This document shows positions 22,821 through 57,190 of a stretch of DNA of 64,000 nt, one piece after another. Source of the DNA: Chloroflexota bacterium (GTDB lineage Bacteria; Chloroflexota; UBA11872). A model generated the notes under the pieces. The model was not told the DNA's origin. It was given only the letters and a program-made list of their open reading frames with translations, and searched no databases. Both the position numbers and the translations under genes were made by a program. Location of the stretch: assembly GCA_026707285.1 (NCBI GenBank), contig JAPOXD010000028.1, forward strand, positions 24,350-88,349. The letters are read 5' to 3'. How positions within the stretch are numbered: position 1 is the first letter of the stretch; each line of letters opens with the position of its first letter.

Positions 22821-22960
22821 GACCTAGACGACGGAGTCCTTTGGCGCGGAGCACCCGGGCGTCCGGGCACAATGTCTTCGATCCGGTAAAGCCAAGAAGT
22901 CCCTTCACCGGCCAGGCCGCATAGAATAGGCGGCCTCGGCCACTCCGGGTACCGCCGCCC

Positions 22961-26815: not shown

Positions 26816-26916
26816 CGGGGCGTAGCCAGCCGGCGTCCACCCCTTGCAGCCCAGGCGTGCTTTGTAGGGGCGGTGCGCGAACCGCCCCTGCCCGATCCAG
26901 AGTCCTACACGCGCAA

Positions 26917-36397: not shown

Positions 36398-37072
36398 CTA
36401 GGGCATATTCCGCACGTCCGCGGCTTTGAACCCGGGCGAGTTCGCCAGGGCGCGCCGGCGCTCCTCGATTTCGAGCACGCCGGGACAGCGCTCCAGGATC
36501 TCGGCGCAATGTTCCGGCGGCAGCACGGCGACCCCGTTCACGTCGGCATGGATGATGTCGCCCGTGCGCACCAGGGTGCCGCTAATGGTGACGTCCAGCC
36601 CCGCCTGCACGATCTCGGGCGTGCCGTGCGCGGCCACCAGGCCCGAGGCGAAGTAGCGAAAGCCAAGCTCATGCACGGTCTCGAAGTCGCGCACGCCGCC
36701 ATCGGTCACCAGTCCAATCGCTCCCAACGCCAGCGAAATCGTGACCATCACGTCGCCGCAATGGGCCGAGCGGTAGCGGTCGGGTCCCACGTCCTTCAGC
36801 ACCAGCACCGCCGGCTTGGGTGATTTCTCGACCAGCTCGAACCACTGGGGAAATCCGTCGCCTTTCTGCGGCGACCCGGGCACGGTGCTGCGGCCCGTCG
36901 CCGTGACGGCATAGCCCACCATGCGCCCCAGGTCCGGATACATGCAGCGAACGTCCCAGCCCATGTAGCCGTCGACCGGGTCGCGCACCTCCATCTCTTC
37001 GATCGCGTTGCAGATGGTCGGGGTGTCGTACTCCAGCAAGCCGTCGAGGATCGCCGGGTCCAGCTCGGTCAT
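36398..37072 (-). CDS. RraA family protein (RraA / HMG-CHA aldolase-like)
   Basis: ICNAIEE...GDVMVTISLALGAIGLVTDGGVRD motifs of the RraA/MenG-like fold. The Met at 37072 is the likely start, since the longer ORF overlaps the creatininase gene. Confidence 0.65.
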   Translation of the reverse strand: MTELDPAILDGLLEYDTPTICNAIEEMEVRDPVDGYMGWDVRCMYPDLGRMVGYAVTATGRSTVPGSPQKGDGFPQWFELVEKSPKPAVLVLKDVGPDRYRSAHCGDVMVTISLALGAIGLVTDGGVRDFETVHELGFRYFASGLVAAHGTPEIVQAGLDVTISGTLVRTGDIIHADVNGVAVLPPEHCAEILERCPGVLEIEERRRALANSPGFKAADVRNMP

Positions 37073-37214
37073 GGATTCGCTCGAATCGTGGTGCGGGTGC
37101 GGTGAATCCCCGAACCTACGCACGGTGGCGGCGGCGCGCAAGTACGGCGCTTGGCAGTTCCATGCCGTAGTTCTGATACGCTCCCGGCCCGCCGCCGGAG
37201 CCGGAGGCCGCGCC

Positions 37215-37895
37215 ATGAAATATGAACGCCTGCGACCAGATGAGATCGAGGCCATCCGCGCCAGGGTGCCCGTAGCGGTGCTCCCGTGGGGCGCCCTGGA
37301 GTGGCATGGCCATCACGCGGCGATCGGCCTCGACGGGTTGAAGGCCGCCGCCTTCGCCGACGCCGTGGCCGACCGCATCGGCGGCATCTCACTGCCGACG
37401 CTGTATTGCGGACACGGGACGATGAAGCCTCAAGCCGGCTTCAGTCACACGATCGAGATTTCGGCGACGACGCTCGAATCGCTGGCGCATGAGTACGTGG
37501 CGCAGCTGGCCGGGGAAGGCTTTCTCGTCGTCGTCATCATCTCCGGCCACGGCAATCCCGATCACCTGGCGGCGCTGGAACGCGGCGCACGCCCGGCCGC
37601 CGATGCCGCCGGGATCGCGCTCTGGATCCTGCCCGACAACGCGGCGATCGACGACGCGGAGTATCCCTTCGACCACGCGGCGAAATGGGAAACCAGCGTG
37701 CTCTGGCACGCGGACCCGGACCTGGTAGACCTGTCAAAGGTCCGCTCTGATGTAGACCTGGAGGCGCAGGGCATTTTGGGCGTGAACCCTGTTGACACTG
37801 CCTCGGCGGAGCTTGGCGCCGCAGCATTCGACGAGATCGTGGACACGATTTCGGAACGAGCGCTCGAGCTGCTGGCGGATCGACCAGGAGCCTAA
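37215..37895 (+). CDS. Creatininase (creatinine amidohydrolase) family protein
   Basis: AVLPWGALEWHGHHAAIGLD and ISGHGNP metal-binding motifs. Confidence 0.65.
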   Translation: MKYERLRPDEIEAIRARVPVAVLPWGALEWHGHHAAIGLDGLKAAAFADAVADRIGGISLPTLYCGHGTMKPQAGFSHTIEISATTLESLAHEYVAQLAGEGFLVVVIISGHGNPDHLAALERGARPAADAAGIALWILPDNAAIDDAEYPFDHAAKWETSVLWHADPDLVDLSKVRSDVDLEAQGILGVNPVDTASAELGAAAFDEIVDTISERALELLADRPGA

Positions 37896-37936
37896 AACCC
37901 GCCGTGGATTGACGACGAGCGGCTAGCTCGCAGCTA

Positions 37937-39394
37937 CTACCGGCCGACGGTGAACGCGTAGAGCTTGGCGTTCATCAAGTAGAACTTGAGGCGGATGTTG
38001 CGTCCCTTCAACTCGTCCAGCGAGCGCTTGTCGTGCCAGGTCACTCGGTGGCTGATCGAGTCGCCGTCGAACAGGGCGCACTCATGGCGGGAGTATCCCC
38101 GGTGCTGGGTGCCGCTTTCGTCGAGGACCGCGACGCCGACGAGGCCGCCGCGCGCGGCGGCGTTGATCGTCAGCGGACCACCCGCGCATCGGAACGCCTT
38201 GGTGACCAGCGTGCCGGTGTCGTCGCCGGTGTCGTCGCCGGCGTCGACCGAGACGAAGCCGTCCATCCGCAGCTTGGCCAGGCAGATCGGCCCGCTGCGA
38301 CCAGTGACGCCGTGCTCCGTCGCGCTGGGCGAGTAGTAGAACCACAGCTCGTCGTCCACCGCCACGGGAGCGCGGGCCACAAAAATCTCGCCGGCGTCGA
38401 TGCTTCCGGGCGGGCCGTTTGGGATGAACGGCTGCCGATCGCCGGCCCGCTCCCAGCTGACGCCGTCCCGACTCGAGGCGAGCTGGACGTCGATGGCGCC
38501 GAAATTGCGGAAATTGCGCTGGATGGGCTCTTCGGGCCGGGTGTGAAAGACGTACAGCAGGCCAAGGTAGTAGCCCGAATATCGAAACACCGGCATGCCG
38601 TAGAACTCCACCGCGGGCGGGTCATGCTCGTCCGGCGCGAGGACGTCTTCGGGGTCACTCCAGTTCACGAAGTCGTCGCTCACGCAGCGCCCGATGCGGC
38701 GGGTCATGTTGCCTTCGCGCATCGTGGGTCGGGCATACGCGACGTAGCAGCCGTGCAGGTCATCCCAGCCAAAGAGCGTGTGGCTGTCGCTGGACCTGGT
38801 GATCACGGGGTTGCCCGGGTGCTTGGTCCACCGCAGCCCGTCTGGCGAAAATGCCACGGAGACGCCCTGGTCGATGTGGAGCGAGCCCAGCGCCGCACAG
38901 TCTTGATCCTCGAAGAACAGCGACTTGTAGCGCCGGTCGGGGTCCGGGTCGCGGGTGTCCTCGATCACATTGGCGAATGCCGCGTTCGCAATCACGACGT
39001 TGTTATCGGTGGCGCCGTCGAACTCGACCAGGCCGAGGTTGGGCCGCTCCCAGTGGATGCCGTCGTGCGAGGTGGCGTAGCAGATGCTGTATTGGAGGTT
39101 CCGCATGTCGAAGTCGAGGTCCTCCAGGTGGGTGCCCGTCAGGTCCAGGCCCATGCGGGCGACGCCCATGCCGCCCATGCCCTGGTACCACATCCGGAAA
39201 CCGCCGTCCGGGTCGCGCCAGACTGTGCCAAAAAGCTCCAGCCGGCCTTCCCACGGATAGAGCGGAATCATGACGGGATTGCCGACGTATTTCTCGGGCT
39301 GATTGAGGCTCCGCGTGACGCCGACGGTCTCGTCGATGACGAGATCGTCGATGAAGAGCTGCTTCTGGCTGCCGAATTCCAACGGTTGCGTCAT
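37937..39394 (-). CDS. Beta-propeller glycoside-hydrolase-like protein (GH32/43/117/130-clan-like) with C-terminal beta-sandwich
   Basis: About 485 aa. Repeated W/D-containing blade motifs, an RDP motif, and an acidic catalytic-like residue pattern. The start at 39394 is supported by a GAGGA RBS. Family assignment is tentative. Confidence 0.4.
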   Translation of the reverse strand: MTQPLEFGSQKQLFIDDLVIDETVGVTRSLNQPEKYVGNPVMIPLYPWEGRLELFGTVWRDPDGGFRMWYQGMGGMGVARMGLDLTGTHLEDLDFDMRNLQYSICYATSHDGIHWERPNLGLVEFDGATDNNVVIANAAFANVIEDTRDPDPDRRYKSLFFEDQDCAALGSLHIDQGVSVAFSPDGLRWTKHPGNPVITRSSDSHTLFGWDDLHGCYVAYARPTMREGNMTRRIGRCVSDDFVNWSDPEDVLAPDEHDPPAVEFYGMPVFRYSGYYLGLLYVFHTRPEEPIQRNFRNFGAIDVQLASSRDGVSWERAGDRQPFIPNGPPGSIDAGEIFVARAPVAVDDELWFYYSPSATEHGVTGRSGPICLAKLRMDGFVSVDAGDDTGDDTGTLVTKAFRCAGGPLTINAAARGGLVGVAVLDESGTQHRGYSRHECALFDGDSISHRVTWHDKRSLDELKGRNIRLKFYLMNAKLYAFTVGR

Positions 39395-39504
39395 CGGCCC
39401 GTCCTCGTATTTAGTGCCGTGCCTTGATTCTCGCAAGTCGAACGCCCGCGGTTCCGCGGGGCGCCGATCGAATCTGCACCGACCCGGCCAATAGACCGTT
39501 TGGG

Positions 39505-41301
39505 CTATTCCTGCGCGGCGTCTGGCTGCAGGAACTGCAGGTCGCAGAGCCGTCGGTACAAGTCGCAGCGCTCGTATAGCTCGTCATGGCGGCCGGTGTC
39601 CAGCACGCGGCCCTCGTCGAGCACCACGATTGAATCCGCGCGGCGCACGGTGGCGAGCCGGTGAGCGATGACGAGGGTCGTTCGACCGGCGGCCGCGCGC
39701 GCGAGCGCTTCCTGCACCAGCCGTTCGGACTCGGCATCGAGCGACGACGTGGCTTCGTCGAGGATGAGGATGCGCGGGTCACCGAGGATGGCCCGCGCAA
39801 TGGCCACCCGCTGGATCTGTCCGCCCGAGAGGCGCAGGCCGCGCTCACCGATGTGTGTGTCGTAGCCATCCTCGGTGTCGGATATGAAGTCGTGCGCGTT
39901 GGCGATCGTTGCGGCCTCGACCATTCGGTCGCTTCCGAAGTCGTCACGCCCAAGCCGAATGTTCTGCTCGATCGAGCCGTCGAACAGCACGGGATCCTGA
40001 AAGACGACGCCGAGCCGCTCACGCACGACCGATGCGTCGACCCCGGCGATGTCGGTTCCATCGATGCGGATACGGCCGCTGGTCGGCTCATAGAACCGCA
40101 GTACCAGGCTGGTGAGCGTTGTCTTGCCCGCGCCGCTGGGGCCGACCACGGCGACGGTTTCTCCCGGATTGGCGCGAAAGCTCACGTCGCGCAGTACGGC
40201 ATCGCTATCCGGGTAGGCGAACGACACACTGTCGAAGCGAATCTCTCCGCGTTCACCCACAGGCTGGGTGGTCGTCGCGGGTGGCGCTGGCCCGGGACCG
40301 GAGTCGAGGAACGCGAACACGCGGCGAGCGGCGCCGGCCGCCACCTGCATGCGGGAGTAATCGGAGACGGCGTTGCCTACCGGTGCACCGAGTTGGAGCA
40401 TGTACTGGCCGGCCGCCACGAGCATTCCCAGTTGTACGGCCCCATCCACCACGGCGCCGGCGAGAACGGCCCAGATTGCGATGTAGATCAGCCAATACAG
40501 GACATTTGGCGCCCATCGCAGGCTATTGAACAGCGACAGATGGACTTGCGCCCGCCACAGTCCATCCGCCTCAGTGCCGACACGCTCGCCCGCCCAGGTT
40601 TGGCGGTTCGCAGCCTTGATGTCGCGCACTCCCCCGGCCATGTCGGTAAGCACGGCCGACAGCCGCCCGACAGCATCCTGGACGCGTCCGCTGGCTGCCC
40701 GCGTGGTGCCGCGAAGCTTCGTCGCCATCAGCGCATGCAGTGGCAGCGAACTGAGCGCAATCACGCCCAGGCGCCAGTCGATGGCAAAGAGGATTGCCAG
40801 ATACGCCGGCAGACGGAACGCCTGGGCGAACACCAGCGAGACGAAATCCAAAAAGACACCGGCGATCACGGTGGCGTCGGAGCTCAGGTGTGCGGCGATG
40901 TCGCCAGTCCGGCGGGCGCGGACTTCGCTGAGCGGCATCCGCTGGGCGTGCCGTAGAACGTCAGAGCGAAGCCTGAGCATCGCGCCCTGGGCCGCGCGCT
41001 CGTGGAACCAGTGGCCGACCGTCGCATCGATGGCCGTCACGATGCCCACGGCGCCGATCGCGATCAGCACCGGCACCAGCAAATCACGATTCCCTTGCCC
41101 AAACACGTCGTCGATGATGAGGTGCAACAGCCATGGGCGAACGATCCAGATCACCGAGTTGCCGAGCGTCGCCCCAATGGCCACCGAGTAATCCCAGCCG
41201 CTGGGCCGCATGTAGGCCCACAAGCGTCGCACCAGTGCCCGATCCGAGAGCTCCGGCGTCGCGCGAGGTGCGACCTGGTCGGCTGGCAACGCAGTGCTCA
41301 T
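39505..41301 (-). CDS. ABC exporter half-transporter (TMD-NBD fusion)
   Basis: Six-TM type I exporter domain followed by an NBD (GPSGAGKTT, LSGGQIQRVAIARA, ILILDEATSSLD). The start at 41301 overlaps the upstream stop (ATGA). Confidence 0.85.
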   Translation of the reverse strand: MSTALPADQVAPRATPELSDRALVRRLWAYMRPSGWDYSVAIGATLGNSVIWIVRPWLLHLIIDDVFGQGNRDLLVPVLIAIGAVGIVTAIDATVGHWFHERAAQGAMLRLRSDVLRHAQRMPLSEVRARRTGDIAAHLSSDATVIAGVFLDFVSLVFAQAFRLPAYLAILFAIDWRLGVIALSSLPLHALMATKLRGTTRAASGRVQDAVGRLSAVLTDMAGGVRDIKAANRQTWAGERVGTEADGLWRAQVHLSLFNSLRWAPNVLYWLIYIAIWAVLAGAVVDGAVQLGMLVAAGQYMLQLGAPVGNAVSDYSRMQVAAGAARRVFAFLDSGPGPAPPATTTQPVGERGEIRFDSVSFAYPDSDAVLRDVSFRANPGETVAVVGPSGAGKTTLTSLVLRFYEPTSGRIRIDGTDIAGVDASVVRERLGVVFQDPVLFDGSIEQNIRLGRDDFGSDRMVEAATIANAHDFISDTEDGYDTHIGERGLRLSGGQIQRVAIARAILGDPRILILDEATSSLDAESERLVQEALARAAAGRTTLVIAHRLATVRRADSIVVLDEGRVLDTGRHDELYERCDLYRRLCDLQFLQPDAAQE

Positions 41302-43097
41302 GGGGCGGCCGCCGGCTGCACCATCTGTAGATCGCACAGATCGCGGTACAAGTCGCACCGCTCGTAGAGCTCGTCATGTCGACCGCGGTCAACGACACGA
41401 CCGGCGTCGAGCACGACGATCTCGTTAGCCCGCCGGACTGTTGCCAGCCGGTGGGCAATCACGATCGTGGTGCGCCCGCCCATGCTTGCCGACATCGCGG
41501 CCATCACGTCGCGTTCAGCCTCGGCGTCGAGCGAGGAGGTTGCCTCGTCGAGCACGAGGATCTTGGGGTCGGGCGCGATGGCGCGCGCGATGGCGATCCG
41601 TTGCACCTGGCCGCCCGACAAGCCGAGCCCGCGTTCGCCGAGACTGGTCTCGTAGCCCCCCGGCAGCTCCTCGATAAATTCCGCGGCGCGGGCGATGCGT
41701 GCCGATTCCTTGATCCGCGCCAGGTCAATGTCATCGCGACCGAAGCTGATGTTTTCACCGATCGATCCGGTAAACAGCGCCGGGTCCTGGAACACGACGC
41801 CGACGTGGCGCCGCACCTGCGTTGGACCGGTTTCCGAGATGTCGCGACCGTCAATGGCGATGGAGCCTTCGTGGGGACGGACGAAGCCAAGCAGGGCGTT
41901 GACGGCCGTCGACTTGCCGGCGCCCGTGGGGCCAACGAGGGCAGTCAGCTTCCCGGCAGGCACCGTGAAGGACACGCCCTGAAGCACGTTTGGGCCGGAC
42001 GCGAAGGCCACGCTGACGTCACGAAACTCAATCTCGCCGCGCGGCACGGACAGCTCTGATGAGGCTTGGTCCGCGGCCGGCTCACCCGATGTATCGATGA
42101 AGCCAAACAGCCGCCCGGCTGCGCCAACGGCGTTCTGAAGTTCTACATACGCGATGGTGAGTGGGAACACCGAAAAGTCCAGCCAGGCAAAGTAGCCAAC
42201 CATGGCAAGGGCGAAGCCGATGGTGACCGTGCCCTGAAAAATGCCGTCGGCCAGCACGGCGAAGATTCCCGCGTGAATCAACCAAAACACGGCATTGAGG
42301 GCGTAAGACCAGCCGCGGACGGTCCCCTGATAGACGCCCGCGCGCAACATCGCACGCAGGCCCAGGCGTAAGCGCTGGAGGGACCAGGCCTCCGCATTGA
42401 ACGCTCGGAGATCCCGTGTGCCGGCGACGAGTTCCGTGGCGAGGCCGCCGAGCTGGCCGGTTGCGTCCTGCATTCGGCGGCTTGCCCGGGCTTGGTGCCG
42501 CCGGTTCATCCAGGGCACGAGCATGTAGACAGGAACGATCGCCGCCGCCGCGACCCCAAATCGCCAGTCGAAGATGGCAATTACCGCGACTACGACGACG
42601 AGCTGTATTGCCGACGCGATTCCTTGTCCGTACGACTCTTGGTAGGCGGTGAGGACTGCCTCCGCGTCCGACGTGAAATGCGTAACGATTTCGCCCCGAC
42701 GGTGCCGCCGGAAATACGTCAGCGGCAGGCGAAACAAGTGCCGCATGAGGTGCGCCCGCAGCACGTTGACGGCGCGGGCGCCCGCGCGAGTGAAGAGATA
42801 GCGACTGAGAATGGAAAGAGCCGCCGTCAATACCGCCAGTATCCCGAGGGCCGCCAGCACCGGCGGCAGCAACTCCAGCTTGCCCGCAATCGCAACGTCG
42901 TCGACAAGCGCCTTGGTGAGCAATGGGACGGGAATCTCTGCACTCACCGCGAGCAGGGAGGCGGCGATGGCGCCCGCCTGCGCACGCCAATGCGGCTGCA
43001 AATAGGCGGCCAAACGGCGGACGGTCGTTGCAGTGCTGGGTGGTGAGGCTTCCATGTGAGTCGCTGAGGCCGCGAGGGCGGTCAAGCTAGACCGCAC
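41298..43097 (-). CDS. ABC exporter half-transporter (TMD-NBD fusion)
   Basis: TMD followed by an NBD (GPTGAGKST, LSGGQVQRIAIARA, ILVLDEATSSLD). Confidence 0.85.
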   Translation of the reverse strand: MRSSLTALAASATHMEASPPSTATTVRRLAAYLQPHWRAQAGAIAASLLAVSAEIPVPLLTKALVDDVAIAGKLELLPPVLAALGILAVLTAALSILSRYLFTRAGARAVNVLRAHLMRHLFRLPLTYFRRHRRGEIVTHFTSDAEAVLTAYQESYGQGIASAIQLVVVVAVIAIFDWRFGVAAAAIVPVYMLVPWMNRRHQARASRRMQDATGQLGGLATELVAGTRDLRAFNAEAWSLQRLRLGLRAMLRAGVYQGTVRGWSYALNAVFWLIHAGIFAVLADGIFQGTVTIGFALAMVGYFAWLDFSVFPLTIAYVELQNAVGAAGRLFGFIDTSGEPAADQASSELSVPRGEIEFRDVSVAFASGPNVLQGVSFTVPAGKLTALVGPTGAGKSTAVNALLGFVRPHEGSIAIDGRDISETGPTQVRRHVGVVFQDPALFTGSIGENISFGRDDIDLARIKESARIARAAEFIEELPGGYETSLGERGLGLSGGQVQRIAIARAIAPDPKILVLDEATSSLDAEAERDVMAAMSASMGGRTTIVIAHRLATVRRANEIVVLDAGRVVDRGRHDELYERCDLYRDLCDLQMVQPAAAP

Positions 43098-43168
43098 CTA
43101 AGGTCTGCGTAGACCGTTTTCGCGGCGTGATCGAGGCAGCGAAGCGAGAGGTTAGCAGATGGCTCGGG

Positions 43169-44959
43169 CTATGCCGTGGCCGGGTCGGGCTGTAGGAATT
43201 GCAAGTCGCAGAGCCGGCGGTAAAGGTCGCAGCGGTCGTAGAGCTCCTCGTGCCGGCCGCTATCGAGCACGCGGCCATCGTCAAGAACCACGATCGAATC
43301 CGCACGGCGCACGGTGGCGAGCCGATGGGCAATCACGATGGTCGTGCGACCGTGTGAGGCGCGCGCCAGCGCTTCCTGCGCCAGGCGTTCCGACTCGGCG
43401 TCCAGCGCCGAGGTGGCCTCGTCGAGTACGAGGATGCGCGGGTCGGCGGCGACGGCGCGGGCAATTGCGACCCGCTGCGCCTGGCCGCCCGAAAGCCGCA
43501 GGCCGCGCTCGCCGATGCGGGTCGCGTAGCCGTGCTCGGTGGCGGTGATGAAGTCGTGTGCGTTGGCAATAGTGGCCGCGCGCTCGACTTGTACGTCGGT
43601 TAGCTCCTCACGGCCGAAGCGAATGTTCTCGCGGATGGCCCCCTCGAACAGCATGGGGTCCTGGAACACGACTCCGAAGGATACGCGCAGCGACGCGGGA
43701 TCAAGGGCGCCGGTGTCGTGGCCGTCAACGGTGATGCGACCGGATGCCGGATCGACAAAGCGGAGCAGCAGGTTGATCAGCGTCGTCTTGCCGGCGCCAC
43801 TCGGTCCCACGACCGCCAGGGTCGTGCCGGGCGCCGTGCGAAAGCTGACCTCACGCAAGACCGGCTGGGCATCGTCGTAGCTGAAGGCGACACGCTCGAA
43901 GCGCACCTCACCGTCCCGGATCGGCGGCGCCGTGACCGCGGCCCCGCTCGGCTCCACGGGCGTGTCCAGGAATGCGAAGACGCGACGCGCCGCTCCCAGC
44001 GCCGTCTGGATCTCGACGTATGCAGACACGATGAGTCGCGACGGCGTCTCGAGCATCAGGAAGTAAAAGCTCAGCGCCAATACGAGTCCCAGGGTGATCT
44101 GGCCCTCGACCGCCGGGCGGGCCAGCACGACCCAGATCGCCGCAAACGAGCCCCAGTAGACGACCGTCTGGACCAGGGCGATGCCTTGCACCACGACCAG
44201 GCGCAGGCGCCCGCGCCACAGCCGGCGCGCCGCGACGCGCAGCCGCCGGCCGGCCCAATCCTCGCGATTGAAGGCCTTGAGATCACGGGCGCCTCCCACG
44301 AACTCGGTCAGCAGCGCCGACAAATCGGCCATGGCGTCCTGGACGCGCTGGCTGGCGCCCTGCACCCTGCCTTGCATCAGCACCGGCAGAAAGGCATAGA
44401 ACGGGATCAAGGCCGTGGCGAGGAGGCCGAAGCGCCAGTCCACCGCGAAGATGATGGCCACGACCGCCAGCACACGAAGGCTCGAAATGGCGACTTCCGA
44501 AAACACGCGCTGGTAGACCCCGCCGATCGCGGTGGCGTCGGAGGTGAAGTGCGCCACAACTTCGCCGGTCCGATGCCGACGCAAGCTGATCAAGGGCAGG
44601 CGATGCGCGTGGTGCAGGATGTCGGTTCGCAAGAGGTTCATGGCACGTTCGCCCACGCGGGCGTAGCCGTACTCGGCGGCGTATCCCAACCCGACAAGGA
44701 CCACCTCCAGCGCGAACATAGCGACGAGCACCGGCGCCAGCAGCGCCTCATTTGCCTGGCCGAAGACATCGTCGACCAGCAGCTTGATGAGCCAGGGACG
44801 AGCGAGCACAAACACCGAGGCCGCGGCAGCTGCCAGCGTCGCAAGCGCGCCGGTCAGCCAGTACGGACGGGCATAGCCCAGTAGGCGCACGAACGTGGAC
44901 CAGGCGCCCGGGGCGCCGGCGGACTTGCCCTGGGCCGCTGCCATCGCCTGCGCGCTCAT
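43169..44959 (-). CDS. ABC exporter half-transporter (TMD-NBD fusion)
   Basis: TMD followed by an NBD (GPSGAGKTT, LSGGQAQRVAIARA, ILVLDEATSALD). ATGA overlap with the upstream gene. Confidence 0.85.
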   Translation of the reverse strand: MSAQAMAAAQGKSAGAPGAWSTFVRLLGYARPYWLTGALATLAAAAASVFVLARPWLIKLLVDDVFGQANEALLAPVLVAMFALEVVLVGLGYAAEYGYARVGERAMNLLRTDILHHAHRLPLISLRRHRTGEVVAHFTSDATAIGGVYQRVFSEVAISSLRVLAVVAIIFAVDWRFGLLATALIPFYAFLPVLMQGRVQGASQRVQDAMADLSALLTEFVGGARDLKAFNREDWAGRRLRVAARRLWRGRLRLVVVQGIALVQTVVYWGSFAAIWVVLARPAVEGQITLGLVLALSFYFLMLETPSRLIVSAYVEIQTALGAARRVFAFLDTPVEPSGAAVTAPPIRDGEVRFERVAFSYDDAQPVLREVSFRTAPGTTLAVVGPSGAGKTTLINLLLRFVDPASGRITVDGHDTGALDPASLRVSFGVVFQDPMLFEGAIRENIRFGREELTDVQVERAATIANAHDFITATEHGYATRIGERGLRLSGGQAQRVAIARAVAADPRILVLDEATSALDAESERLAQEALARASHGRTTIVIAHRLATVRRADSIVVLDDGRVLDSGRHEELYDRCDLYRRLCDLQFLQPDPATA

Positions 44960-46755
44960 GGGTTAACTGCGCCGTTGGAAGTCATCTGCAAGTCGCAGAG
45001 TTCGCGGTAGAGATCACAGCGTTCGTAGAGCTCGTCGTGCCGGCCGGCATCCACGACCTTGCCCGCATCGAGCAACACGATGTGATCCGCGCCGCGCACG
45101 GTCGCCAGCCGGTGCGCGATCACCAGCATGGTGCGGTCGGCGGCGGCCCGCTCCAATGCCGCTTGTACCAGGCGCTCAGCCTCGGCGTCGAGCGCCGAGG
45201 TGGCCTCGTCGAGGACGAGGATCCGCGGGTCGGCGGCGATGGCCCGGGCAATCGCGATGCGCTGCGCCTGCCCGCCGGAGAGCCGCAGGCCGCGTTCGCC
45301 AATCTGGGTCGCGTAGCCCTGCGGCATGGCCGATATGAAATCGTGGGCATTCGCGATGGTGGCCGCCTCGACGACCCGCGCTTCCGAGATATCGTCTCGG
45401 CCAAACCTGATGTTGTCGGCCACCGTGCCGGCGAAGAGCACAGGGTCCTGGAACACGACGCCCACGTGGCGCCGCAACTCGGCTGCGGTGACCGCGGCCA
45501 GGTCATGTCCATCCACGAGGATGCGACCGCCGCTCGGCTGCAGGAAGCGCAGCAGCAAGTTCGCGATGGTGGTCTTGCCGGAGCCGCTGGGACCGACCAA
45601 GGCCGTGGTCCGACCGGCGGGCGCCGTGAAGCTCACGTCTTGGATCACGGGCGCGCCGCTTTCGTAGGCGGCGTTGACGTGCTCGAAGTCAATCTCGCCA
45701 CGGATTTCCGGCAGGCCGCGCGCGGCGTCCGGTTTCGCCGACTCCGTAGGCGTGTCGAGGAACGCGAACAGACGTCCTGCGGCGCCCAGGGCGTGCTGGG
45801 TCTCGGCGTAAGCGCCCATCAGCGCGAATGCCGGCCCCACGAGGTACAACATGTATTGCGCCAGCGCGAGCACCACGCCGAGTTTGACCTCGCCGCCAAG
45901 GATGGCGCCCGCGAGCACGGCAAAGATCGCCACCCGAATCAGTTCGTGGATGACGGTGAAGAAGAGCCGAGTGTGCCGCAATGTCGCGACGCGCAGGCGA
46001 GCGCTGAATAGCCGGCGTAAGTCGCTCGCCAGGCGGCGCGCTGCCCAGCCCTGTCGGTTGAAGGCCTTGATCTCTCGAGCGCCGGCGACGAGCTCGGTCG
46101 ACAGGCCGCCGAGCGCGGCCATAGCCGACTGCTCCCGTTCACCTGCCCGGCGTTGCGGGCGGCCGAGCAGTGCGGGCAGAGTCGCCTGGAGCGGAATGAC
46201 GCCAAGCGACACGAGGACAAAGCGCCAGTCGATCAGCCCGACTACCAGCAGCATGACGGCGAGCTCGATAACGGCGGCCGGGGCGGCGCCGAAAGTCGCG
46301 CGATAGACGCCCGTCACTGCGACGGAGTCGGTGGTGAAGTGCGCCACGACCTCGCCGGTCCGTTGACGCCGGAAATAGGCGAGCGGCAGCCGCAGCGTGT
46401 GGTCCATCAGGCGCGTGCGGAGGTCGTTGATCGCCTGCTCGCCAGCGGTGGTGTACAGATAGTTGGATGCCAGAAGGAGACCGGCCGTGGCCACGGCCGC
46501 CGCGACGATGCCCGCCGCCGCCGGCCCGAGCAGGTCCAGGTTCCCGGCCCCCACGACGTCGTCGATGAGGATCTTGGTCAGCCAGGGAAAGGGTAGGAAG
46601 GTGGCCACAACCAGGACCGACGACATGATCGCCGCCGCCTGCCAGCGCCAGTGCGGCCGTAGGTAGGCTGCCAGGCGGCGGAGGAGCCAAACGGTGTTGG
46701 GCGATTGGGCCGACGCTGCGTCGCTCATCGTGCCTCCCTCGGTCGAGGGTGCCAT
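44956..46755 (-). CDS. ABC exporter half-transporter (TMD-NBD fusion)
   Basis: TMD followed by an NBD (GPSGSGKTT, LSGGQAQRIAIARA, ILVLDEATSALD). Confidence 0.85.
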   Translation of the reverse strand: MAPSTEGGTMSDAASAQSPNTVWLLRRLAAYLRPHWRWQAAAIMSSVLVVATFLPFPWLTKILIDDVVGAGNLDLLGPAAAGIVAAAVATAGLLLASNYLYTTAGEQAINDLRTRLMDHTLRLPLAYFRRQRTGEVVAHFTTDSVAVTGVYRATFGAAPAAVIELAVMLLVVGLIDWRFVLVSLGVIPLQATLPALLGRPQRRAGEREQSAMAALGGLSTELVAGAREIKAFNRQGWAARRLASDLRRLFSARLRVATLRHTRLFFTVIHELIRVAIFAVLAGAILGGEVKLGVVLALAQYMLYLVGPAFALMGAYAETQHALGAAGRLFAFLDTPTESAKPDAARGLPEIRGEIDFEHVNAAYESGAPVIQDVSFTAPAGRTTALVGPSGSGKTTIANLLLRFLQPSGGRILVDGHDLAAVTAAELRRHVGVVFQDPVLFAGTVADNIRFGRDDISEARVVEAATIANAHDFISAMPQGYATQIGERGLRLSGGQAQRIAIARAIAADPRILVLDEATSALDAEAERLVQAALERAAADRTMLVIAHRLATVRGADHIVLLDAGKVVDAGRHDELYERCDLYRELCDLQMTSNGAVNP

Positions 46756-46789
46756 AGCCCGCCCGGTGCCGCATGCGGTGAGGAATCGC

Positions 46790-47998
46790 CTAGATTTGCA
46801 ACCCGTCCGTTGCGACCGTGAAGGCGTCGGCGTTGCGCAGCGTGGCGGCCCGCGCTTCGACCGTTGGTAACAGCCGGCGATTCGACGCGAAGGGCACGGT
46901 CACCTCGTGCAGGCCGCCGTGTGAGCGGAGGCGGGAGGCGCTGAGGACCGATAGATCGTGCGCGCCGGGCGCTCGACCCAGGACGGAGCCGCGGTCGCTG
47001 AGCAGGACGACGTCGCCGATGCGATCGGCGGGCAGCTCGTATTTGACGGCGGCTTCGCTCCTGGGCAGGGCGTCGTCAATGCGCGGGTCTTCGCGCAGGC
47101 GCTGGATGGCCGCATCCACCTGATCGGGCGGGAGATAGACGGTGGCAAATGACCCGAGGCCCGCGTGGTGCGTCACGTGCGGATCGGTCACCGGCAGCAC
47201 CACCCGGAACGGCCCGGGCACCGCCCCGTCCAGCAGCGTTTCCAGGTAGACGATGTTGGGCGTGCCGTCGGGATGGCATTTGTCGTTCATGCCGTGGTCG
47301 GCGGTCAGCAGGATCACGGCCCCGAGCGCGTCGAGCTCGGCGAGGCGGCGGTCGAGCGACGTGTAGAAGGCGTCGGCTTCGGGCGAGCCGGGCGCGTAGG
47401 TGTGCTGCACGAAGTCCGTGAGCGACAGATAGCACAGGTCGGCCAGGCGGTCGCGCGCGAGGTAGACGCCGCAGGCCATGACGAAGTCGCTCATTTGGCC
47501 GGAATAGATGCCGGGATTGCTCCGACCCATGCGCCGGGTGACACCCGCGATGCCGTGCTCGTGCTCGGTAGTCTCGTGGGCCAGCTCGCCGGAGAAGCAG
47601 ATGCCGCGCCAGCCGGTGGCCAGCATGGTGCGCAGCTTGTCCTTGGCCGTGATGGCGGCCACGCGGCGGCCTTCGCGGCTGAACCTGGCGAAGAGCGACT
47701 CGCAGCGCAGGAATCGCGGGTGGTCCATCATCACCTCGACCTCGCGCTTGGCGTCGTAGAAGTAATTCCCCGAGATTCCGTGGGCCGCCGGCGGCCGGCC
47801 GGTGACGATGGTCATGTTGTTGGGGTTGGTGAACGATGGAATCGCCGCCGGGACGAGGTGATACGCGCCCTCGCGCTGGAAGCGGGCCAGCGTGGGCATG
47901 CACCCGTGGTCGATGGCCGCGTCCACGTAGGCCGGGTCGGCGCCGTCGGCGCAGATCACGACCACGGGCGAATGGGTTACAGGCAACGGCGGCCTCAC
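46790..47998 (-). CDS. Phosphonoacetate hydrolase-like enzyme (alkaline phosphatase superfamily, type I phosphodiesterase/NPP fold)
   Basis: VVICADGADPAYV, SFTNPNNMTIVTG, ITAKDKLR, LTADHGMN, LRSHGG. This pattern matches my recollection of PhnA phosphonoacetate hydrolase. The substrate is not certain. Confidence 0.6.
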   Translation of the reverse strand: MRPPLPVTHSPVVVICADGADPAYVDAAIDHGCMPTLARFQREGAYHLVPAAIPSFTNPNNMTIVTGRPPAAHGISGNYFYDAKREVEVMMDHPRFLRCESLFARFSREGRRVAAITAKDKLRTMLATGWRGICFSGELAHETTEHEHGIAGVTRRMGRSNPGIYSGQMSDFVMACGVYLARDRLADLCYLSLTDFVQHTYAPGSPEADAFYTSLDRRLAELDALGAVILLTADHGMNDKCHPDGTPNIVYLETLLDGAVPGPFRVVLPVTDPHVTHHAGLGSFATVYLPPDQVDAAIQRLREDPRIDDALPRSEAAVKYELPADRIGDVVLLSDRGSVLGRAPGAHDLSVLSASRLRSHGGLHEVTVPFASNRRLLPTVEARAATLRNADAFTVATDGLQI

Positions 47999-48200
47999 GT
48001 TCAGCCTTCGGGTCCACGCCAGTCTAATGGCGTCGCCGGCTCCCGGCGGCTTGGTGGTCTGGACTGAGTTTCTTGGCGTGTTCGGGGTTTAACTTCGTCT
48101 ACGAAGTTTCAATCCGCTCCGTGGGCCGGGGTGCCGCCCCTTGTCGCGTCATTCGAACGAATGTGAGGAATCCAAGGACGTTGTGCCTTTTTCCCACCCC

Positions 48201-48230
48201 TTAGATTCCTCGCTGCGCTCGGACTGACAG
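48201..48230. repeat. Direct repeat copy A (TAGATTCCTCGCTGCGCTCGGACTGAC); copy B at 49107..49139
   Basis: Near-identical ~27-nt elements (2 mismatches) flank the PhyH-family gene at 48313..49062. Copy B is followed by the tandem half-repeat TCGGAGTGACCGAG. Confidence 0.45.
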
Positions 48231-48312
48231 TTTGAAGGTTCACGTGCGGAGCACGTTCCAAGTCAACGCTATCCTCGCAGCGATTCCGATGTAGTCGATC
48301 GTGGAGGGAGTA

Positions 48313-49062
48313 ATGGAGCGTCTGCCCGAGGTCCACGCCATGGCGCTGCACCTCAAGCGCCTGGAATTGACTGGATTCACGCTCGTACCCCAAGCCCTTG
48401 CTCCCGCACGCCTGGAGCGGGTTCGCGAGTGCCTCGACCAGCTCTTCAGCGACCACCCCAACGTGCCAACGGCCGTGAAGGACTACCGGCGGACGTCGCT
48501 CCCGGGATCGGGATCCATCGACATCAACCGCCTGTTCGAGCTAGACCCGATTTTCGAAGACCTCATGGACCTGCCGACCGTGCTGCCGGTCGTCCAAGCC
48601 GCGCTGGGCCACGACGCGACGCTGTGCTGCGATGCGACGGGAAACCACCGGGCGCCGCGTTCACGGGCGGCGACGCTTTGGCATCGCGACGGCGGCCCCT
48701 ACCTCCGTCTCACCTATTTCCTGGACGACATTACCGAGCGCAACGGCGCGACCGCGTTCCTTCCCGGGAGCCATCTGAGCGCCGAGCCGCCGCCGCCGTG
48801 GGCCAACCACGATGGTCAGCCGCGCCTGATTCCCGGAATGGTGCACGCCACCGGACCCGCGGGCGCCTGTCTGCTGAACAACACAAACCTCTGGCACACG
48901 AACACGCCGAACGACTCGGACCGGCCGCGCCGGGTGATCTGGCTGCTGTTCAAGCCGTCGCAGGTGGAGTTCGCGTCGCATGACGAGATGAAGTCCACCG
49001 ATGCCTACTTCGCCCGCCAAACCGACCCAGGGCGACGCGCCCTGATGGGCTTGGCGGACTAG
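48313..49062 (+). CDS. Phytanoyl-CoA dioxygenase (PhyH) family Fe(II)/2OG oxygenase
   Basis: HxD...H facial-triad arrangement (LWHRDGG...FLPGSHL...NLWHTNTPN). GGAGGG RBS 5 nt upstream of the ATG at 48313. Confidence 0.6.
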   Translation: MERLPEVHAMALHLKRLELTGFTLVPQALAPARLERVRECLDQLFSDHPNVPTAVKDYRRTSLPGSGSIDINRLFELDPIFEDLMDLPTVLPVVQAALGHDATLCCDATGNHRAPRSRAATLWHRDGGPYLRLTYFLDDITERNGATAFLPGSHLSAEPPPPWANHDGQPRLIPGMVHATGPAGACLLNNTNLWHTNTPNDSDRPRRVIWLLFKPSQVEFASHDEMKSTDAYFARQTDPGRRALMGLAD

Positions 49063-49174
49063 CTCATGTCGGCAGTCCGGGCAGCCGGCGGCCGGAGGTT
49101 CGGCGCTCTAGATTCCTCGCTACGCTCGGAATGACCGAGGGGCTCGGAGTGACCGAGAGGCTGGAGCAGGCCCG

Positions 49175-49945
49175 CTAGGTCGCGAGCACGAAGGTGTTGC
49201 TTAGGACGCCGTTGCCTTCGACTTCGACCTCGACGACGTCGCCGTCATTGAGCGGCGTGCTCTCGCCCGAGGTTCCGGTGAAGAAGACATCGCCCGGCTC
49301 GAGGGTCATGTACCGCGAGACGTAGCTGACCAGCTCGTCGACGCCGTAGAACATGTTGGTGGTGCGGGTGTCCTCGACCACCTCGCCATTGACTCGGGTG
49401 ATGAGCTGGAGGTCGCGGTAGTCCAGGCCGGGGGTGACCCAGGGGCCGAATGGCGAGAACGTGTCCGTGCCCTTGCCGCGAAACCAATCGCTGTCGGCGC
49501 CGACCCACTCGTAGGCGCTGACGTCGTTGGCGCAGCACACGCCGAGGATGTAGTCCGAGACCTCGTCCTCAGCGATATGGCGGCCACGCTTGCTGATGAC
49601 GACGGCCATTTCACCCTCATAGGACACCGGGGTTTCGCGGGGCATGACGACGTTGGCGCCGGGGTCGGTGACGGAGGTGCTGGGCGCCAGGAACGGCTTG
49701 GGACGGGGCGGCTTGGGCGCGCCCGCCATGTGGCTCTCGTAGTTGCCGGCGGCGTTGATGACCTTTGACGGCGCGGTCGGCGACTTGAGCGTGACCGCGT
49801 CGAGGGCAACCACCGCGCCGGTGCGCTGACGGTCGCCGAAGAAGTCGCCCTCGATCTCGGCGATCGAGCCGTCGTCCAAGATGCCGTGCCGGATGCTGCC
49901 GTCGAGTTCGTAGCGCACCAAGTGCATGTCGTCAGGTTCCTTCAT
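49175..49945 (-). CDS. Fumarylacetoacetate hydrolase (FAH) family protein
   Basis: Motifs typical of HpcE/FAH family members (VINAAGNY, YEGEMAVVI, DVSAYEW, GKGTDTFSPFGPW, FTGT). Confidence 0.7.
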   Translation of the reverse strand: MKEPDDMHLVRYELDGSIRHGILDDGSIAEIEGDFFGDRQRTGAVVALDAVTLKSPTAPSKVINAAGNYESHMAGAPKPPRPKPFLAPSTSVTDPGANVVMPRETPVSYEGEMAVVISKRGRHIAEDEVSDYILGVCCANDVSAYEWVGADSDWFRGKGTDTFSPFGPWVTPGLDYRDLQLITRVNGEVVEDTRTTNMFYGVDELVSYVSRYMTLEPGDVFFTGTSGESTPLNDGDVVEVEVEGNGVLSNTFVLAT

Positions 49946-54608: not shown

Positions 54609-54928
54609 GCCAGCCTCCCCTGCCGCCGTCCTGGCGGCGGCGCACCGCTAGGCGAACGTTCCGCGGCGACGGTGTCGGGGCGGCGCGCCTTGCATCATCC
54701 CGGCCACGCCGCGGGGCGCGAGATTAACCGAATCAACTACGGGCGGGCAAGTTTTCCTAACCGGAAGTGACGCGCGGGTCGGTGGATTTCCCCGACGCGT
54801 GCGATCCCCGGCGCGTCCGTGGGAATCCCGCCCATCGCCAAGACGCGGAAGAGCCGGCGGTCTTGCGACCGCCGGCTCTTCGCTGTCCGCGGGTGCCGCT
54901 GCTCAGCGCAGGGGCATCGCGGTGAGCG

Positions 54929-56992: not shown

Positions 56993-57190
56993 ACAAACCT
57001 CCCCTTGCCGCCGACATGGCGGTAGCACCGCCCCGCGGACCACCCGCGGCGGCGGCTTTCCAGCGGCGCATTATCCACAAATTTGGGCAACGCCGCGAAC
57101 GCCAAGGACACCCGAAGTCCCGGCAGCCCTTCCGCGTCTGGGGTCCCCGCGCACACAACTCCGCTGCGGACGACGACTGACCGCCGTGCG

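What the first reader, a model, noticed from the sequence alone, without database searches (positions are those of the whole stretch)
37937..47998. Operon of a phosphonoacetate-hydrolase-like enzyme, four tandem ABC exporter genes and a beta-propeller GH-like protein
Six co-directional minus-strand genes are separated by 34, -4, 71, -4 and 68 nt. They comprise an AP-superfamily PhnA-like hydrolase, four TMD-NBD half-transporters arranged as two ATGA-coupled pairs (44956/44959 and 41298/41301), and a GH-like propeller. The two coupled pairs imply two heterodimeric exporters. Exporters are unexpected partners for a phosphonate or phosphodiester hydrolase. The grouping suggests production, processing and export of a phosphorylated or phosphonylated glycoconjugate, or possibly of a peptide. 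The cluster is divergent from a PhyH-family oxygenase.
Basis: partly seen in the sequence, partly recalled or inferred. Interest (0 to 1): 0.7.

Follow-up and report, generated by a model that had tools for sequence, protein, structure and literature searches.

The report
PhnA beside duplicated ABC exporter pairs
In a sponge-associated Chloroflexota genome a genuine phosphonoacetate hydrolase gene sits just upstream of two duplicated ABC exporter pairs and a GH130-like sugar enzyme, but about 30 related genomes show these are separable modules, so the cluster is largely ordinary.

Summary
The six co-directional minus-strand genes are real. They are a true PhnA-family phosphonoacetate hydrolase with all catalytic residues, four fused TMD-NBD ABCB-type half-transporters in two ATGA-overlapped pairs, and a cytoplasmic five-bladed propeller closest to GH130. 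More likely start codons change three gaps from 34/71/68 nt to 61/113/110 nt.

The proposed joint function, making and exporting a phosphonylated glycoconjugate or peptide, is not supported.
- The array is kept only in a tight group of sponge Chloroflexota species, where all neighbouring genes are equally conserved.
- About 15 sister species keep PhnA (89-92% identical) with its own conserved upstream region, but only a stub or frameshifted remnant of ABC1 follows it.
- Elsewhere the ABC array has contracted from four genes to two by recombination between paralogues. One relative has a foreign insert between PhnA and ABC1. One has a 5'-truncated PhnA next to intact ABCs.
- ABC pairs and g6 relatives occur on their own in other contexts. 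g6 relatives sit in catabolic clusters.
- All four ABCs have consensus ATP sites.

Best reading: three independent modules that lie side by side and may be co-transcribed. Interest is low. This is a new member of known kinds.

The parts
46790..47998 (-). phnA, phosphonoacetate hydrolase of the alkaline-phosphatase superfamily. The likely start is TTG 47986 (398 aa). The longest ORF starts at GTG 47998.
   Evidence: TIGR02335 scores 437.2 bits against a cut-off of 407.55. PF01663 hits at 9.7e-29. The match to S. meliloti PhnA 3szy is E 1.4e-118, and to P. fluorescens 1ei6 is 7e-104. D18, T57, K119, K121, D195, H199, D234, H235 and H360 are invariant in 40 of 40 orthologues. The start was inferred from conservation and from the gene call.
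47987..48106 (-). Upstream block that stays with phnA in both genomic contexts. It includes a conserved TAGACT (-10-like) hexamer at 48021-48026 and a GAGG ribosome-binding site.
   Evidence: Nucleotide homology between the window and the context-B loci begins at window 48053-48106 and ends at 46721-46786. The aligned upstream sequences show TAGACTGG conserved in most context-A and all context-B loci. Promoter function is inferred, not shown.
46729..46789 (-). 61-nt phnA-ABC1 spacer holding the ABC1 ribosome-binding site GGGAGG. It is a hot spot for insertions and breaks in relatives.
   Evidence: The spacer is conserved in context A. All or part of it survives after phnA in context B, where the ABC genes are gone. 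In L002 it is replaced by an 800-nt insert. No terminator-like site lies in it.
44956..46755 (-). ABC1, an 'odd'-type TMD-NBD half-transporter. The likely start is ATG 46728 (590 aa).
   Evidence: PF00664 hits at 1.8e-35 and PF00005 at 5.3e-33. All NCBIfam hits fall below their equivalog cut-offs. It aligns over its full length to ABCB10, TM288, Sav1866 and BmrA at E 1e-84 to 1e-90. ATP-site motifs are consensus.
43169..44959 (-). ABC2, an 'even'-type half-transporter. Its ATG overlaps the ABC1 stop codon (ATGA).
   Evidence: It is 55% identical to ABC4 and 52% to ABC1. An identical protein is on record in the public contig.
41298..43097 (-). ABC3, an 'odd'-type half-transporter and paralogue of ABC1 (53% identity). 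The likely start is ATG 43055 (585 aa).
   Evidence: The start follows the gene call and the orthologue alignment.
39505..41301 (-). ABC4, an 'even'-type half-transporter and paralogue of ABC2. Its ATG 41301 overlaps the ABC3 stop codon (ATGA).
37937..39394 (-). g6, a 485-aa protein with a five-bladed beta-propeller and a C-terminal beta-sandwich. It has no obvious hydrophobic signal sequence. The fold is GH130-like. The family is uncharacterised and very large.
48313..49062 (+). Divergent PhyH-family Fe(II)/2-oxoglutarate oxygenase. It is a neighbour and is not shown to be part of the unit.
   Evidence: PF05721 hits at 1.8e-15. The PDB search finds only generic PhyH and KanJ-like matches and no phosphonate oxygenase. 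It is present in context A and absent beside phnA in context B.

Best explanation
The six genes are three independent modules that lie next to each other in one lineage of sponge-symbiont Chloroflexota.

1. **phnA** is an autonomous, cytoplasmic, zinc-dependent phosphonoacetate hydrolase. It cleaves phosphonoacetate to acetate and phosphate, using a Thr nucleophile and two Lys residues that stabilise the leaving group. It has its own upstream control region. Its probable role is to scavenge phosphorus, and perhaps carbon, from phosphonates.
2. **ABC1/ABC2 and ABC3/ABC4** are two paralogous, probably redundant, heterodimeric ABCB-type (Sav1866-fold) exporters, each with two catalytically competent ATP sites. 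They arose by tandem duplication of a lineage-specific exporter pair. A more distant copy of that pair sits between thrS and surE. Their substrate is unknown; a generic efflux or lipid-type cargo is the default guess.
3. **g6** is a cytoplasmic GH130-like glycoside phosphorylase or hydrolase. It belongs to a hugely expanded Chloroflexota family whose usual partners are catabolic enzymes.

Read-through transcription from phnA into the ABCs and g6 is plausible, because the gaps are short and no terminator was detected. The modules do not need each other.

**Shown:** the family assignments, the motifs, the synteny patterns and the recombinant arrays. **Inferred:** the promoter, heterodimer formation, redundancy of the two pairs, and all substrates.
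For: **PhnA identity**
- Established.
- The mechanism residues follow the review PMC10574752.

**PhnA autonomy**
- Fifteen or sixteen species (L006-L008, L010-L018, L020-L022, L030) keep PhnA at 89-92% amino-acid identity.
- There it is flanked by exopolysaccharide genes and an aldo-keto reductase, not by ABCs.
- These species still carry the same ~55-110 nt upstream block with TAGACT.
- They also carry the phnA-ABC1 spacer, or up to a frameshifted ~95-codon ABC1 remnant.
- The ABCs were therefore once adjacent and were lost, while PhnA stayed under selection.
- L046 shows the opposite case: PhnA has lost residues 1-171 while ABC1-4 are intact and g6 is absent.
- L002 has an 800-nt low-GC insert with an antisense ORF between PhnA and ABC1.

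**ABC redundancy and pairing**
- L005, L019 and L025 keep only ABC1-ABC2.
- L027 and L048 keep only ABC3-ABC4.
- L026 has frameshifted ABC2 and ABC3.
- Junctions show recombination between paralogues. One array has an ABC2 body with an ABC4 tail and 3' spacer. Another has an ABC1 leader with an ABC3 body.
- Every array, and the isolated pairs in L045 and L047, has one odd-type plus one even-type gene in that order.
- All four NBDs carry consensus Walker A, Q-loop, LSGGQ, Walker B with catalytic Glu, and H-loop motifs.

**g6 independence**
- Its closest relatives outside the clade (74-75% identity) sit in clusters of 3-5 paralogues with Amidohydro_2, a TPP enzyme, an SDR and E1_dh/Transket_pyr, with no ABC or PhnA.
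- E1_dh and/or Transket_pyr homologues also follow g6 in L002 and L048.

**Canonical comparison**
- In Pseudomonas L040, PhnA lies in phnR<>phnD-phnC-phnE-phnA-phoA, next to an importer rather than an exporter.
- No phnW, phnY or phnCDE-like gene was found among the genes scanned in the 64-kb window.
Against: - The PhnA-ABC-g6 order, with conserved spacers, is kept in every context-A locus with enough sequence: 8 GTDB species plus several metagenome contigs.
- The ABC1 remnant in context B shows the PhnA-ABC1 junction is older than the split between the two clades. The adjacency has therefore persisted for some time.
- No terminator was found in the 61-, 113- or 110-nt gaps, so one transcript is possible.
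- Canonical phnA operons do include a transporter. A transport role linked to PhnA cannot be excluded by sequence alone.
- I could not check whether context-B genomes keep the ABC/g6 array elsewhere.
Confidence: 0.6

Rival explanations
1. Phosphonate transport operon. The exporter-fold ABC pairs take the place of the PhnCDE importer found in canonical phnA operons. They would import phosphonoacetate or a precursor without a binding protein, as IrtAB, YbtPQ and Rv1819c do for other substrates (from my own knowledge). Alternatively they would export the acetate or phosphate-linked product. PhnA and the ABCs would then form one functional unit.
For: - PhnA is immediately upstream of ABC1, across a conserved 61-nt spacer, in all context-A loci.
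- The junction predates the A/B split.
- The canonical Pseudomonas locus couples phnA to a transporter.
- No other phosphonate transporter was found in the window.
Against: - About 15 species keep PhnA without the ABCs at that locus.
- L046 keeps the ABCs with a truncated PhnA.
- L002 separates the two by an antisense gene.
- Homologous ABC pairs lie in unrelated contexts: between thrS and surE, and between transposases.
- No solute-binding or accessory domain is present.
- The family resembles generic ABCB exporters.
Confidence: 0.1
2. Glycan synthesis and export unit. g6 would act in the synthetic direction, as some GH130 enzymes do (reverse phosphorolysis, mannoside synthase). It would make an oligosaccharide or glycolipid that the ABC pairs export, by analogy with the cyclic-glucan exporters ChvA/NdvA. 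PhnA would be an unrelated neighbour.
For: - g6 follows the ABC array across a conserved ~110-nt spacer in every complete context-A locus, whichever ABC pair survived.
- Its best structural matches are GH130 phosphorylases and a mannoside synthase.
- The ABCs give sub-threshold hits to glucan-exporter models, 315-365 bits against a cut-off of 733.
Against: - g6-family genes elsewhere lie in catabolic clusters without ABC exporters.
- ABC arrays occur without g6 in L045, L046 and L047.
- E1_dh and/or Transket_pyr homologues follow g6 both in relatives of this locus (L002, L048) and in the unrelated L003 and L050, which points to a catabolic partner set.
- The glucan-exporter scores are no better than those for MsbA, TAP or HlyB.
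Confidence: 0.12
3. The six genes form one operon that produces, processes and exports a phosphorylated or phosphonylated glycoconjugate, or a peptide.
For: The genes are co-directional with short gaps, and no terminator was detected. The mix of hydrolase, exporters and a GH-like protein is conserved within context A.
Against: - No biosynthetic gene is present in the cluster or in the scanned window. There is no PEP mutase, glycosyltransferase, peptide precursor or maturase.
- PhnA is a catabolic C-P hydrolase that is highly specific for phosphonoacetate (PMC10574752), and it retains the two carboxylate-stabilising Lys residues.
- The ABCs have no peptidase or accessory domain.
- The separability evidence listed under the best explanation also applies here.
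Confidence: 0.04

Closest known systems
Phosphonoacetate hydrolase PhnA (S. meliloti 3SZY, P. fluorescens 23F 1EI6; NCBIfam TIGR02335)
   Same: - Full-length homology at E 1e-118 and 7e-104, and a score above the equivalog cut-off.
- The Thr nucleophile, the six metal ligands and the AKDK lysine pair are all conserved.
- The length is similar and no signal peptide is evident.
   Different: - It comes from Chloroflexota, whereas most known phnA genes are proteobacterial (PMC10574752).
- It is not linked to phnW/phnY, to a LysR or GntR regulator, or to a PhnCDE importer. Compare the Pseudomonas locus.
- It is a solitary gene with its own upstream block. In one clade it lies next to ABC exporters.
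Bacterial heterodimeric ABCB-type (type IV, Sav1866-fold) exporters such as TM287/288, and the homodimers Sav1866 and BmrA
   Same: - Fused TMD-NBD half-transporters of about 590 aa.
- Alignment over the full length at E 1e-84 to 1e-86.
- Adjacent, translationally coupled gene pairs with one gene of each paralogue type.
   Different: - Both ATP sites are consensus in both pairs. From my own knowledge, TM287/288, BmrCD, LmrCD and TmrAB carry one degenerate site.
- The pair is duplicated in tandem, and relatives have between 2 and 8 genes.
- The subfamily is narrow. Only about 60 database clusters exceed roughly 43% identity, nearly all from Chloroflexota metagenomes.
- It has a distinctive conserved C-terminus, ELYxRCDLYRxLCDLQ.
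- The substrate is unknown.
GH130 mannoside phosphorylases, hydrolases and synthase (e.g. Teth514_1788, UhgbMP, Uhgb_MS)
   Different: - Sequence identity is only 15-19%.
- No GH130 Pfam hit was found.
- It has an extra C-terminal beta-sandwich, giving an overall GH32/GH43-like two-domain layout.
- Catalytic and phosphate-binding residues were not mapped.
Canonical phnA operons (P. fluorescens 23F phnR-phnA region; Pseudomonas sp. locus L040)
   Same: phnA lies beside ABC-type transporter genes on the same strand (PMC10574752).
   Different: There the transporter is a binding-protein-dependent PhnDCE importer under a dedicated regulator. Here the neighbours are exporter-fold half-transporters, no regulator is present, and the link is dispensable in sister species.

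Membership tests
Phosphonoacetate hydrolase PhnA (TIGR02335) | Whole-protein score above the curated equivalog cut-off | tested here: met
   437.2 bits against a cut-off of 407.55, E 6e-131, covering profile positions 10-408 of 408.
Phosphonoacetate hydrolase PhnA (TIGR02335) | Binuclear-metal ligands and the Thr nucleophile of the alkaline-phosphatase core | tested here: met
   D18, T57, D195, H199, D234, H235 and H360 are present and invariant in 40 of 40 orthologues. They align with the same residues of 3szy. Assigning these residues to roles rests on my knowledge of the published structures and on PMC10574752.
Phosphonoacetate hydrolase PhnA (TIGR02335) | Two Lys residues that stabilise the aci-carboxylate leaving group and distinguish PhnA from NPPs | tested here: met
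   The AKDK motif (K119, K121) is conserved in 40 of 40 sequences and is identical in 3szy. Their role is as stated in PMC10574752.
Phosphonoacetate hydrolase PhnA (TIGR02335) | Closer to PhnA than to generic nucleotide pyrophosphatases/phosphodiesterases | tested here: met
   PhnA structures match at E 1e-104 to 1e-118. The best NPP or autotaxin match is E 3e-4 or weaker.
Phosphonoacetate hydrolase PhnA (TIGR02335) | Hydrolysis of phosphonoacetate to acetate and phosphate | not testable with these tools
   This needs an enzyme assay.
PhnWAY / PhnDCE-PhnA phosphonate catabolic operon | phnA linked to phnW, phnY, a phosphonate importer or a dedicated regulator | tested here: not met
   None of the 38 or so window ORFs scanned matches Aminotran_5, Aldedh, PhnD/C/E or a LysR/GntR regulator. 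The Pseudomonas comparator has phnR and phnDCE.
ABCB-type (type IV / Sav1866-fold) exporter half-transporter | Fused N-terminal ABC_membrane TMD and C-terminal ABC_tran NBD, homologous over the full length to solved exporters | tested here: met
   All four genes hit PF00664 (E 2e-26 to 2e-37) and PF00005 (E 1e-31 to 1e-33). ABC1 aligns over residues 17-581 to Sav1866 and 11-579 to TM288. The TMD fold itself was not modelled.
ABCB-type (type IV / Sav1866-fold) exporter half-transporter | Catalytically competent NBD motifs (Walker A, Q-loop, LSGGQ, Walker B plus Glu, H-loop) | tested here: met
   All motifs are consensus in ABC1 to ABC4.
Heterodimeric ABC exporters with one degenerate ATP site (TM287/288, BmrCD, LmrCD class) | Non-consensus catalytic Glu, signature or H-loop in one subunit | tested here: not met
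   No substitution appears in any of the four proteins. Heterodimer formation is inferred only from the ATGA coupling and the constant odd-plus-even pairing.
Named exporter equivalogs (MsbA, glucan exporter NdvA/ChvA, HlyB type I secretion, CydDC, bacteriocin exporters) | Score above the NCBIfam equivalog cut-off | tested here: not met
   The best hits are TIGR02204 at 399-436 bits (cut-off 780), MsbA at 373-417 (602), the glucan exporter at 315-365 (733) and HlyB at 316-380 (726). No peptidase C39 domain is present.
GH130 glycoside phosphorylase/hydrolase | Five-bladed propeller fold closest to GH130 structures | tested here: met
GH130 glycoside phosphorylase/hydrolase | Sequence-family membership (Pfam/CAZy profile) | tested here: not met
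   No Pfam family reaches E <= 1 except GH32N at 0.041. Identity to GH130 structures is 13-20%. CAZy profiles were not available.
GH130 glycoside phosphorylase/hydrolase | Catalytic Asp and phosphate-binding residues in place | not tested
   No residue-level structural superposition could be made with these tools. Invariant Asp, His and Arg residues of the family are listed.
Operon (single functional transcription unit) | Co-directional genes with short gaps and no internal terminators or promoters | tested here: inconclusive
   Gaps are 61, -4, 113, -4 and 110 nt. All terminator-like sites are intragenic and at chance frequency, 6 found against 5.8 expected. No sigma-70-like site was found, against 1.1 expected, and the scan is not calibrated for Chloroflexota.
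Operon (single functional transcription unit) | Gene set conserved together across divergent genomes | tested here: not met
   The set is conserved only among species whose flanking genes are equally conserved. It is broken in context B, L002, L046 and all more distant PhnA, ABC and g6 loci.

The most novel reading that the evidence does not exclude
The ancient and recurrent phnA-ABC1 junction reflects a real functional link. The exporter-fold ABC pairs would be binding-protein-independent importers, or exchangers, for phosphonoacetate or a phosphonate-decorated sugar derived from the sponge host. The GH130-like g6 would then trim that sugar and PhnA would dephosphonylate it. This would be a new kind of phosphonate-acquisition system in symbiotic Chloroflexota.
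Probability: 0.07. Interest if true: 0.65.

Novelty: new member of a known kind. Interest (0 to 1): 0.22.

Why it matters
The cluster adds a well-supported phosphonoacetate hydrolase to sponge-symbiont Chloroflexota. It suggests that these abundant symbionts can draw phosphorus from phosphonates, which is useful for holobiont nutrient budgets.

It also documents a lineage-specific ABC exporter family whose tandem pairs expand and contract by recombination. The large GH130-like family is still uncharacterised and would repay biochemical study.

The cluster does not reveal a new pathway or mechanism. Its main value is as a cautionary example: tight, co-directional spacing within a few closely related genomes is not evidence of shared function.

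Tried and rejected
- **Promoter and terminator scan of 37000-49500.** Results were at chance level and the scan is not tuned to this phylum, so it is uninformative.
- **PhyH neighbour as a phosphonate oxygenase (PhnY*/TmpA-like).** The PDB sequence search returned only generic PhyH, KanJ and SnoN matches, and the gene is absent beside phnA in context B. Rejected as a partner.
- **Degenerate ATP site within each pair.** None was found.
- **Specific exporter assignment through NCBIfam.** Every hit was below its cut-off and the ranking was undiscriminating.
- **Sequence-based family for g6.** No Pfam or NCBIfam hit. Only fold comparison worked.
- **Break-point repeat element.** I looked in the window for the repeat that marks the breaks after phnA in relatives. 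It is absent. One loosely similar palindrome lies at 26867-26888.
- **Literature on sponge Chloroflexota and phnA.** Nothing specific turned up. The primary PhnA structure paper, PMC3102601, is not held, so residue roles rest on the review PMC10574752 and on my own knowledge.
- **Direction of the A/B rearrangement.** This could not be resolved. The outgroup locus L028 shares the MBL and sarcosine-oxidase neighbours with L007 but in inverted order.

Full report
**Origin and observation**

The window matches a 144-kb scaffold from a sponge metagenome, ENA ERZ23497053 (ROBB21-1 scaffold_59). Close relatives are all Chloroflexota MAGs. Many have sponge-derived bin names, with genomes of 3-3.8 Mb and about 66% GC.

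They have coding-type third-position GC, and the public gene call on the same contig lists them too. Conservation of start regions in orthologues, Shine-Dalgarno motifs and the public gene call favour later starts for four genes:
- PhnA at TTG 47986
- ABC1 at ATG 46728
- ABC3 at ATG 43055
- g6 at ATG 39394

This gives gaps of 61, -4, 113, -4 and 110 nt. The two ATGA overlaps are real. The ABC1/ABC2 overlap recurs in L002 and L044. The ABC3/ABC4 overlap recurs in L044, while L002 has a 28-nt gap there.

**PhnA**

The protein passes the NCBIfam equivalog model for phosphonoacetate hydrolase, at 437 bits against a cut-off of 407.6. It matches the solved S. meliloti and P. fluorescens enzymes at E 1e-118 and 7e-104. 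Nucleotide pyrophosphatases reach only about 1e-4.

The Thr nucleophile, the Asp/His metal ligands and the AKDK lysine pair are all present. According to the review PMC10574752, that lysine pair stabilises the aci-carboxylate leaving group. All of these residues are invariant in 40 orthologues. This is a bona fide PhnA.

None of the roughly 38 window ORFs scanned resembles phnW, phnY, phnCDE or a dedicated regulator. A Pseudomonas comparator has phnR<>phnD-phnC-phnE-phnA-phoA.

**The ABC genes**

All four are fused ABC_membrane plus ABC_tran half-transporters. They are homologous over their full length to ABCB10, TM288, Sav1866 and BmrA. No named exporter model reaches its cut-off.

They are 44-55% identical to one another. 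ABC1 groups with ABC3 (the 'odd' type) and ABC2 with ABC4 (the 'even' type). All four carry consensus Walker A, Q-loop, LSGGQ, Walker B-Glu and H-loop motifs. Neither pair has a degenerate ATP site.

The subfamily is narrow. In a database of 5.8 billion proteins, only about 60 clusters exceed roughly 43% identity to ABC2. These are nearly all from Chloroflexota metagenomes.

**g6**

No hydrophobic signal sequence is evident in its N-terminus. The family has at least 2792 members, found in SAR202/Dehalococcoidia and Planctomycetes among others.

**Synteny: the decisive evidence**

A scan of one genome per species with PhnA returned 39 loci. Mapping all window proteins onto them gave two contexts.

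*Context A* comprises 8 GTDB species plus metagenome contigs L002, L044 and L048. It has the window's order: SBP5-FAA hydrolase-PhyH<>PhnA-ABCs-g6-creatininase-RraA-sugar importer. Every gene in this stretch is about equally conserved (80-100%), so the conservation reflects recent common ancestry rather than selection for linkage.

Within context A the ABC array varies:
- Four genes: window, L002, L009, L023, L044
- ABC1-ABC2 only: L005, L019, L025
- ABC3-ABC4 only: L027, L048
- Frameshifted ABC2 and ABC3: L026

The junctions of the two-gene arrays are recombinant. L005 has an ABC2 body with an ABC4-type C-terminal tail and the ABC4-g6 spacer. L027 has the ABC1 leader fused to an ABC3 body. 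The arrays therefore contract by unequal recombination between paralogues, and either pair suffices. One odd-type plus one even-type gene always remains, which supports obligate heterodimers.

L002 carries an 800-nt low-GC insert with an antisense ORF between PhnA and ABC1. In L046, a PhnA lacking residues 1-171 precedes intact ABC1-4. That block lies between inverted copies of another ABC pair, and there is no g6.

*Context B* comprises 15-16 species with PhnA 89-92% identical to the window's. Here PhnA lies after an exopolysaccharide gene set and a divergent aldo-keto reductase, with no ABC or g6 within 10 kb.

The nucleotide homology block shared with the window runs from 55-110 nt upstream of PhnA to 4-70 nt downstream. 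The upstream part contains a conserved TAGACT hexamer. The downstream part is the phnA-ABC1 spacer, which breaks off at several different points in different species. L006 still holds a frameshifted remnant of about 95 codons of ABC1.

ABC1 was therefore once next to PhnA in the ancestor of these species. It was then lost or left behind, while PhnA stayed intact with its own control region.

The two more distant Chloroflexota PhnA loci and the 13 loci from other phyla have no ABC exporter nearby.

**The other modules on their own**
- ABC pairs of this family occur alone between transposases (L045, 61-63% identity) and between thrS and surE (L047, 58-59% identity).
- g6's nearest relatives outside context A (74-75% identity) sit among 3-5 tandem paralogues with Amidohydro_2, a TPP enzyme, an SDR and E1_dh/Transket_pyr.
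- E1_dh and/or Transket_pyr homologues also follow g6 in L002 and L048. This points to a catabolic partner set rather than to the exporters.
- A Planctomycete-like relative lies among DUF2341/Laminin_G and NAGidase genes.

**Interpretation**

The best-supported reading is three juxtaposed modules:
- an autonomous phosphonoacetate hydrolase
- two redundant heterodimeric ABCB-type exporters produced by tandem duplication
- a cytoplasmic GH130-like carbohydrate enzyme

Co-transcription remains possible. No terminator-like site lies in the spacers, but the scan was at chance level and is not calibrated for this phylum.

Sequence alone does not exclude them, but each is contradicted by the separability of the parts.

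**Novelty and score**

Each component belongs to a known kind, and the arrangement is a lineage-specific neighbourhood. Three points are worth recording:
- PhnA occurs in sponge Chloroflexota.
- The exporter pairs have two consensus ATP sites and a labile copy number.
- The large GH130-like family is uncharacterised.

I score interest at about 0.2. The most novel reading still open is a new exporter-fold phosphonate uptake and processing system. I give it about 7% probability.

Noticed in passing
window 10049-12865 (-) and 12950-14818 (-): Two large leucine-rich-repeat proteins (938 and 622 aa). These are eukaryote-like repeat proteins of the sort reported for sponge symbionts.
   Followed up: no
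window 50136-52196, 52563-54647, 54929-57070 (-): Three tandem SBP_bac_5 solute-binding paralogues of about 690-710 aa. Each has an N-terminal stretch of about 220 aa with no Pfam match. They are conserved upstream of the cluster in context-A relatives.
   Followed up: partly
L046 1-16040 (2.76-Mb metagenome contig): Eight ABC half-transporter genes lie in a row. A 5'-truncated PhnA plus ABC1-4 sit between inverted copies of the thrS-linked exporter pair seen in L047. This may be a recombination product or an assembly artefact.
   Followed up: partly
L003 4087-11434 and L050 1-17977: Three to five tandem paralogues of the g6 family lie beside Amidohydro_2, a TPP enzyme, an SDR and E1_dh/Transket_pyr. 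E1_dh and/or Transket_pyr homologues also follow g6 in L002 and L048. This recurrent partner set hints at the real pathway of this uncharacterised GH130-like family.
   Followed up: partly
L002, L023, L025-L027, L044, about 100-140 nt upstream of phnA; window 26867-26888: A perfect GC-rich palindrome, GGGGCGCTTCGCGAAGCGCCCC, is inserted upstream of phnA in several relatives. A related palindrome occurs once in the window. These look like REP-like elements.
   Followed up: partly
L006, L007, L010, L013, L021, L030, just after the phnA stop codon: A shared element of about 40-200 nt (…CTTTGCGTAACC…GGTTGCCCGGAAGAC…) marks the break after phnA, and an IS110 transposase follows in L007. The element is absent from the window. 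The phnA 3' flank is a rearrangement hot spot.
   Followed up: partly
L007 2479-8186 and equivalent positions in other context-B loci: In the sister clade, phnA lies downstream of a conserved exopolysaccharide-type gene set: GT4, Bac_transf, GT4, two unknown genes and a CbiA/ParA-like ATPase. A divergent aldo-keto reductase lies between that set and phnA.
   Followed up: no
window 22925-23884 (+) and 24212-24649 (+): A second, weak PhyH-like oxygenase and a PIN-domain toxin gene.
   Followed up: no
window 39505-46728, C-termini of ABC1 to ABC4: All four exporters end in a nearly identical motif, ELYxRCDLYRxLCDLQ, containing two Cys residues. Conservation here is unusually strong compared with the rest of the proteins. 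This region is also where the ABC2/ABC4 recombination took place.
   Followed up: no
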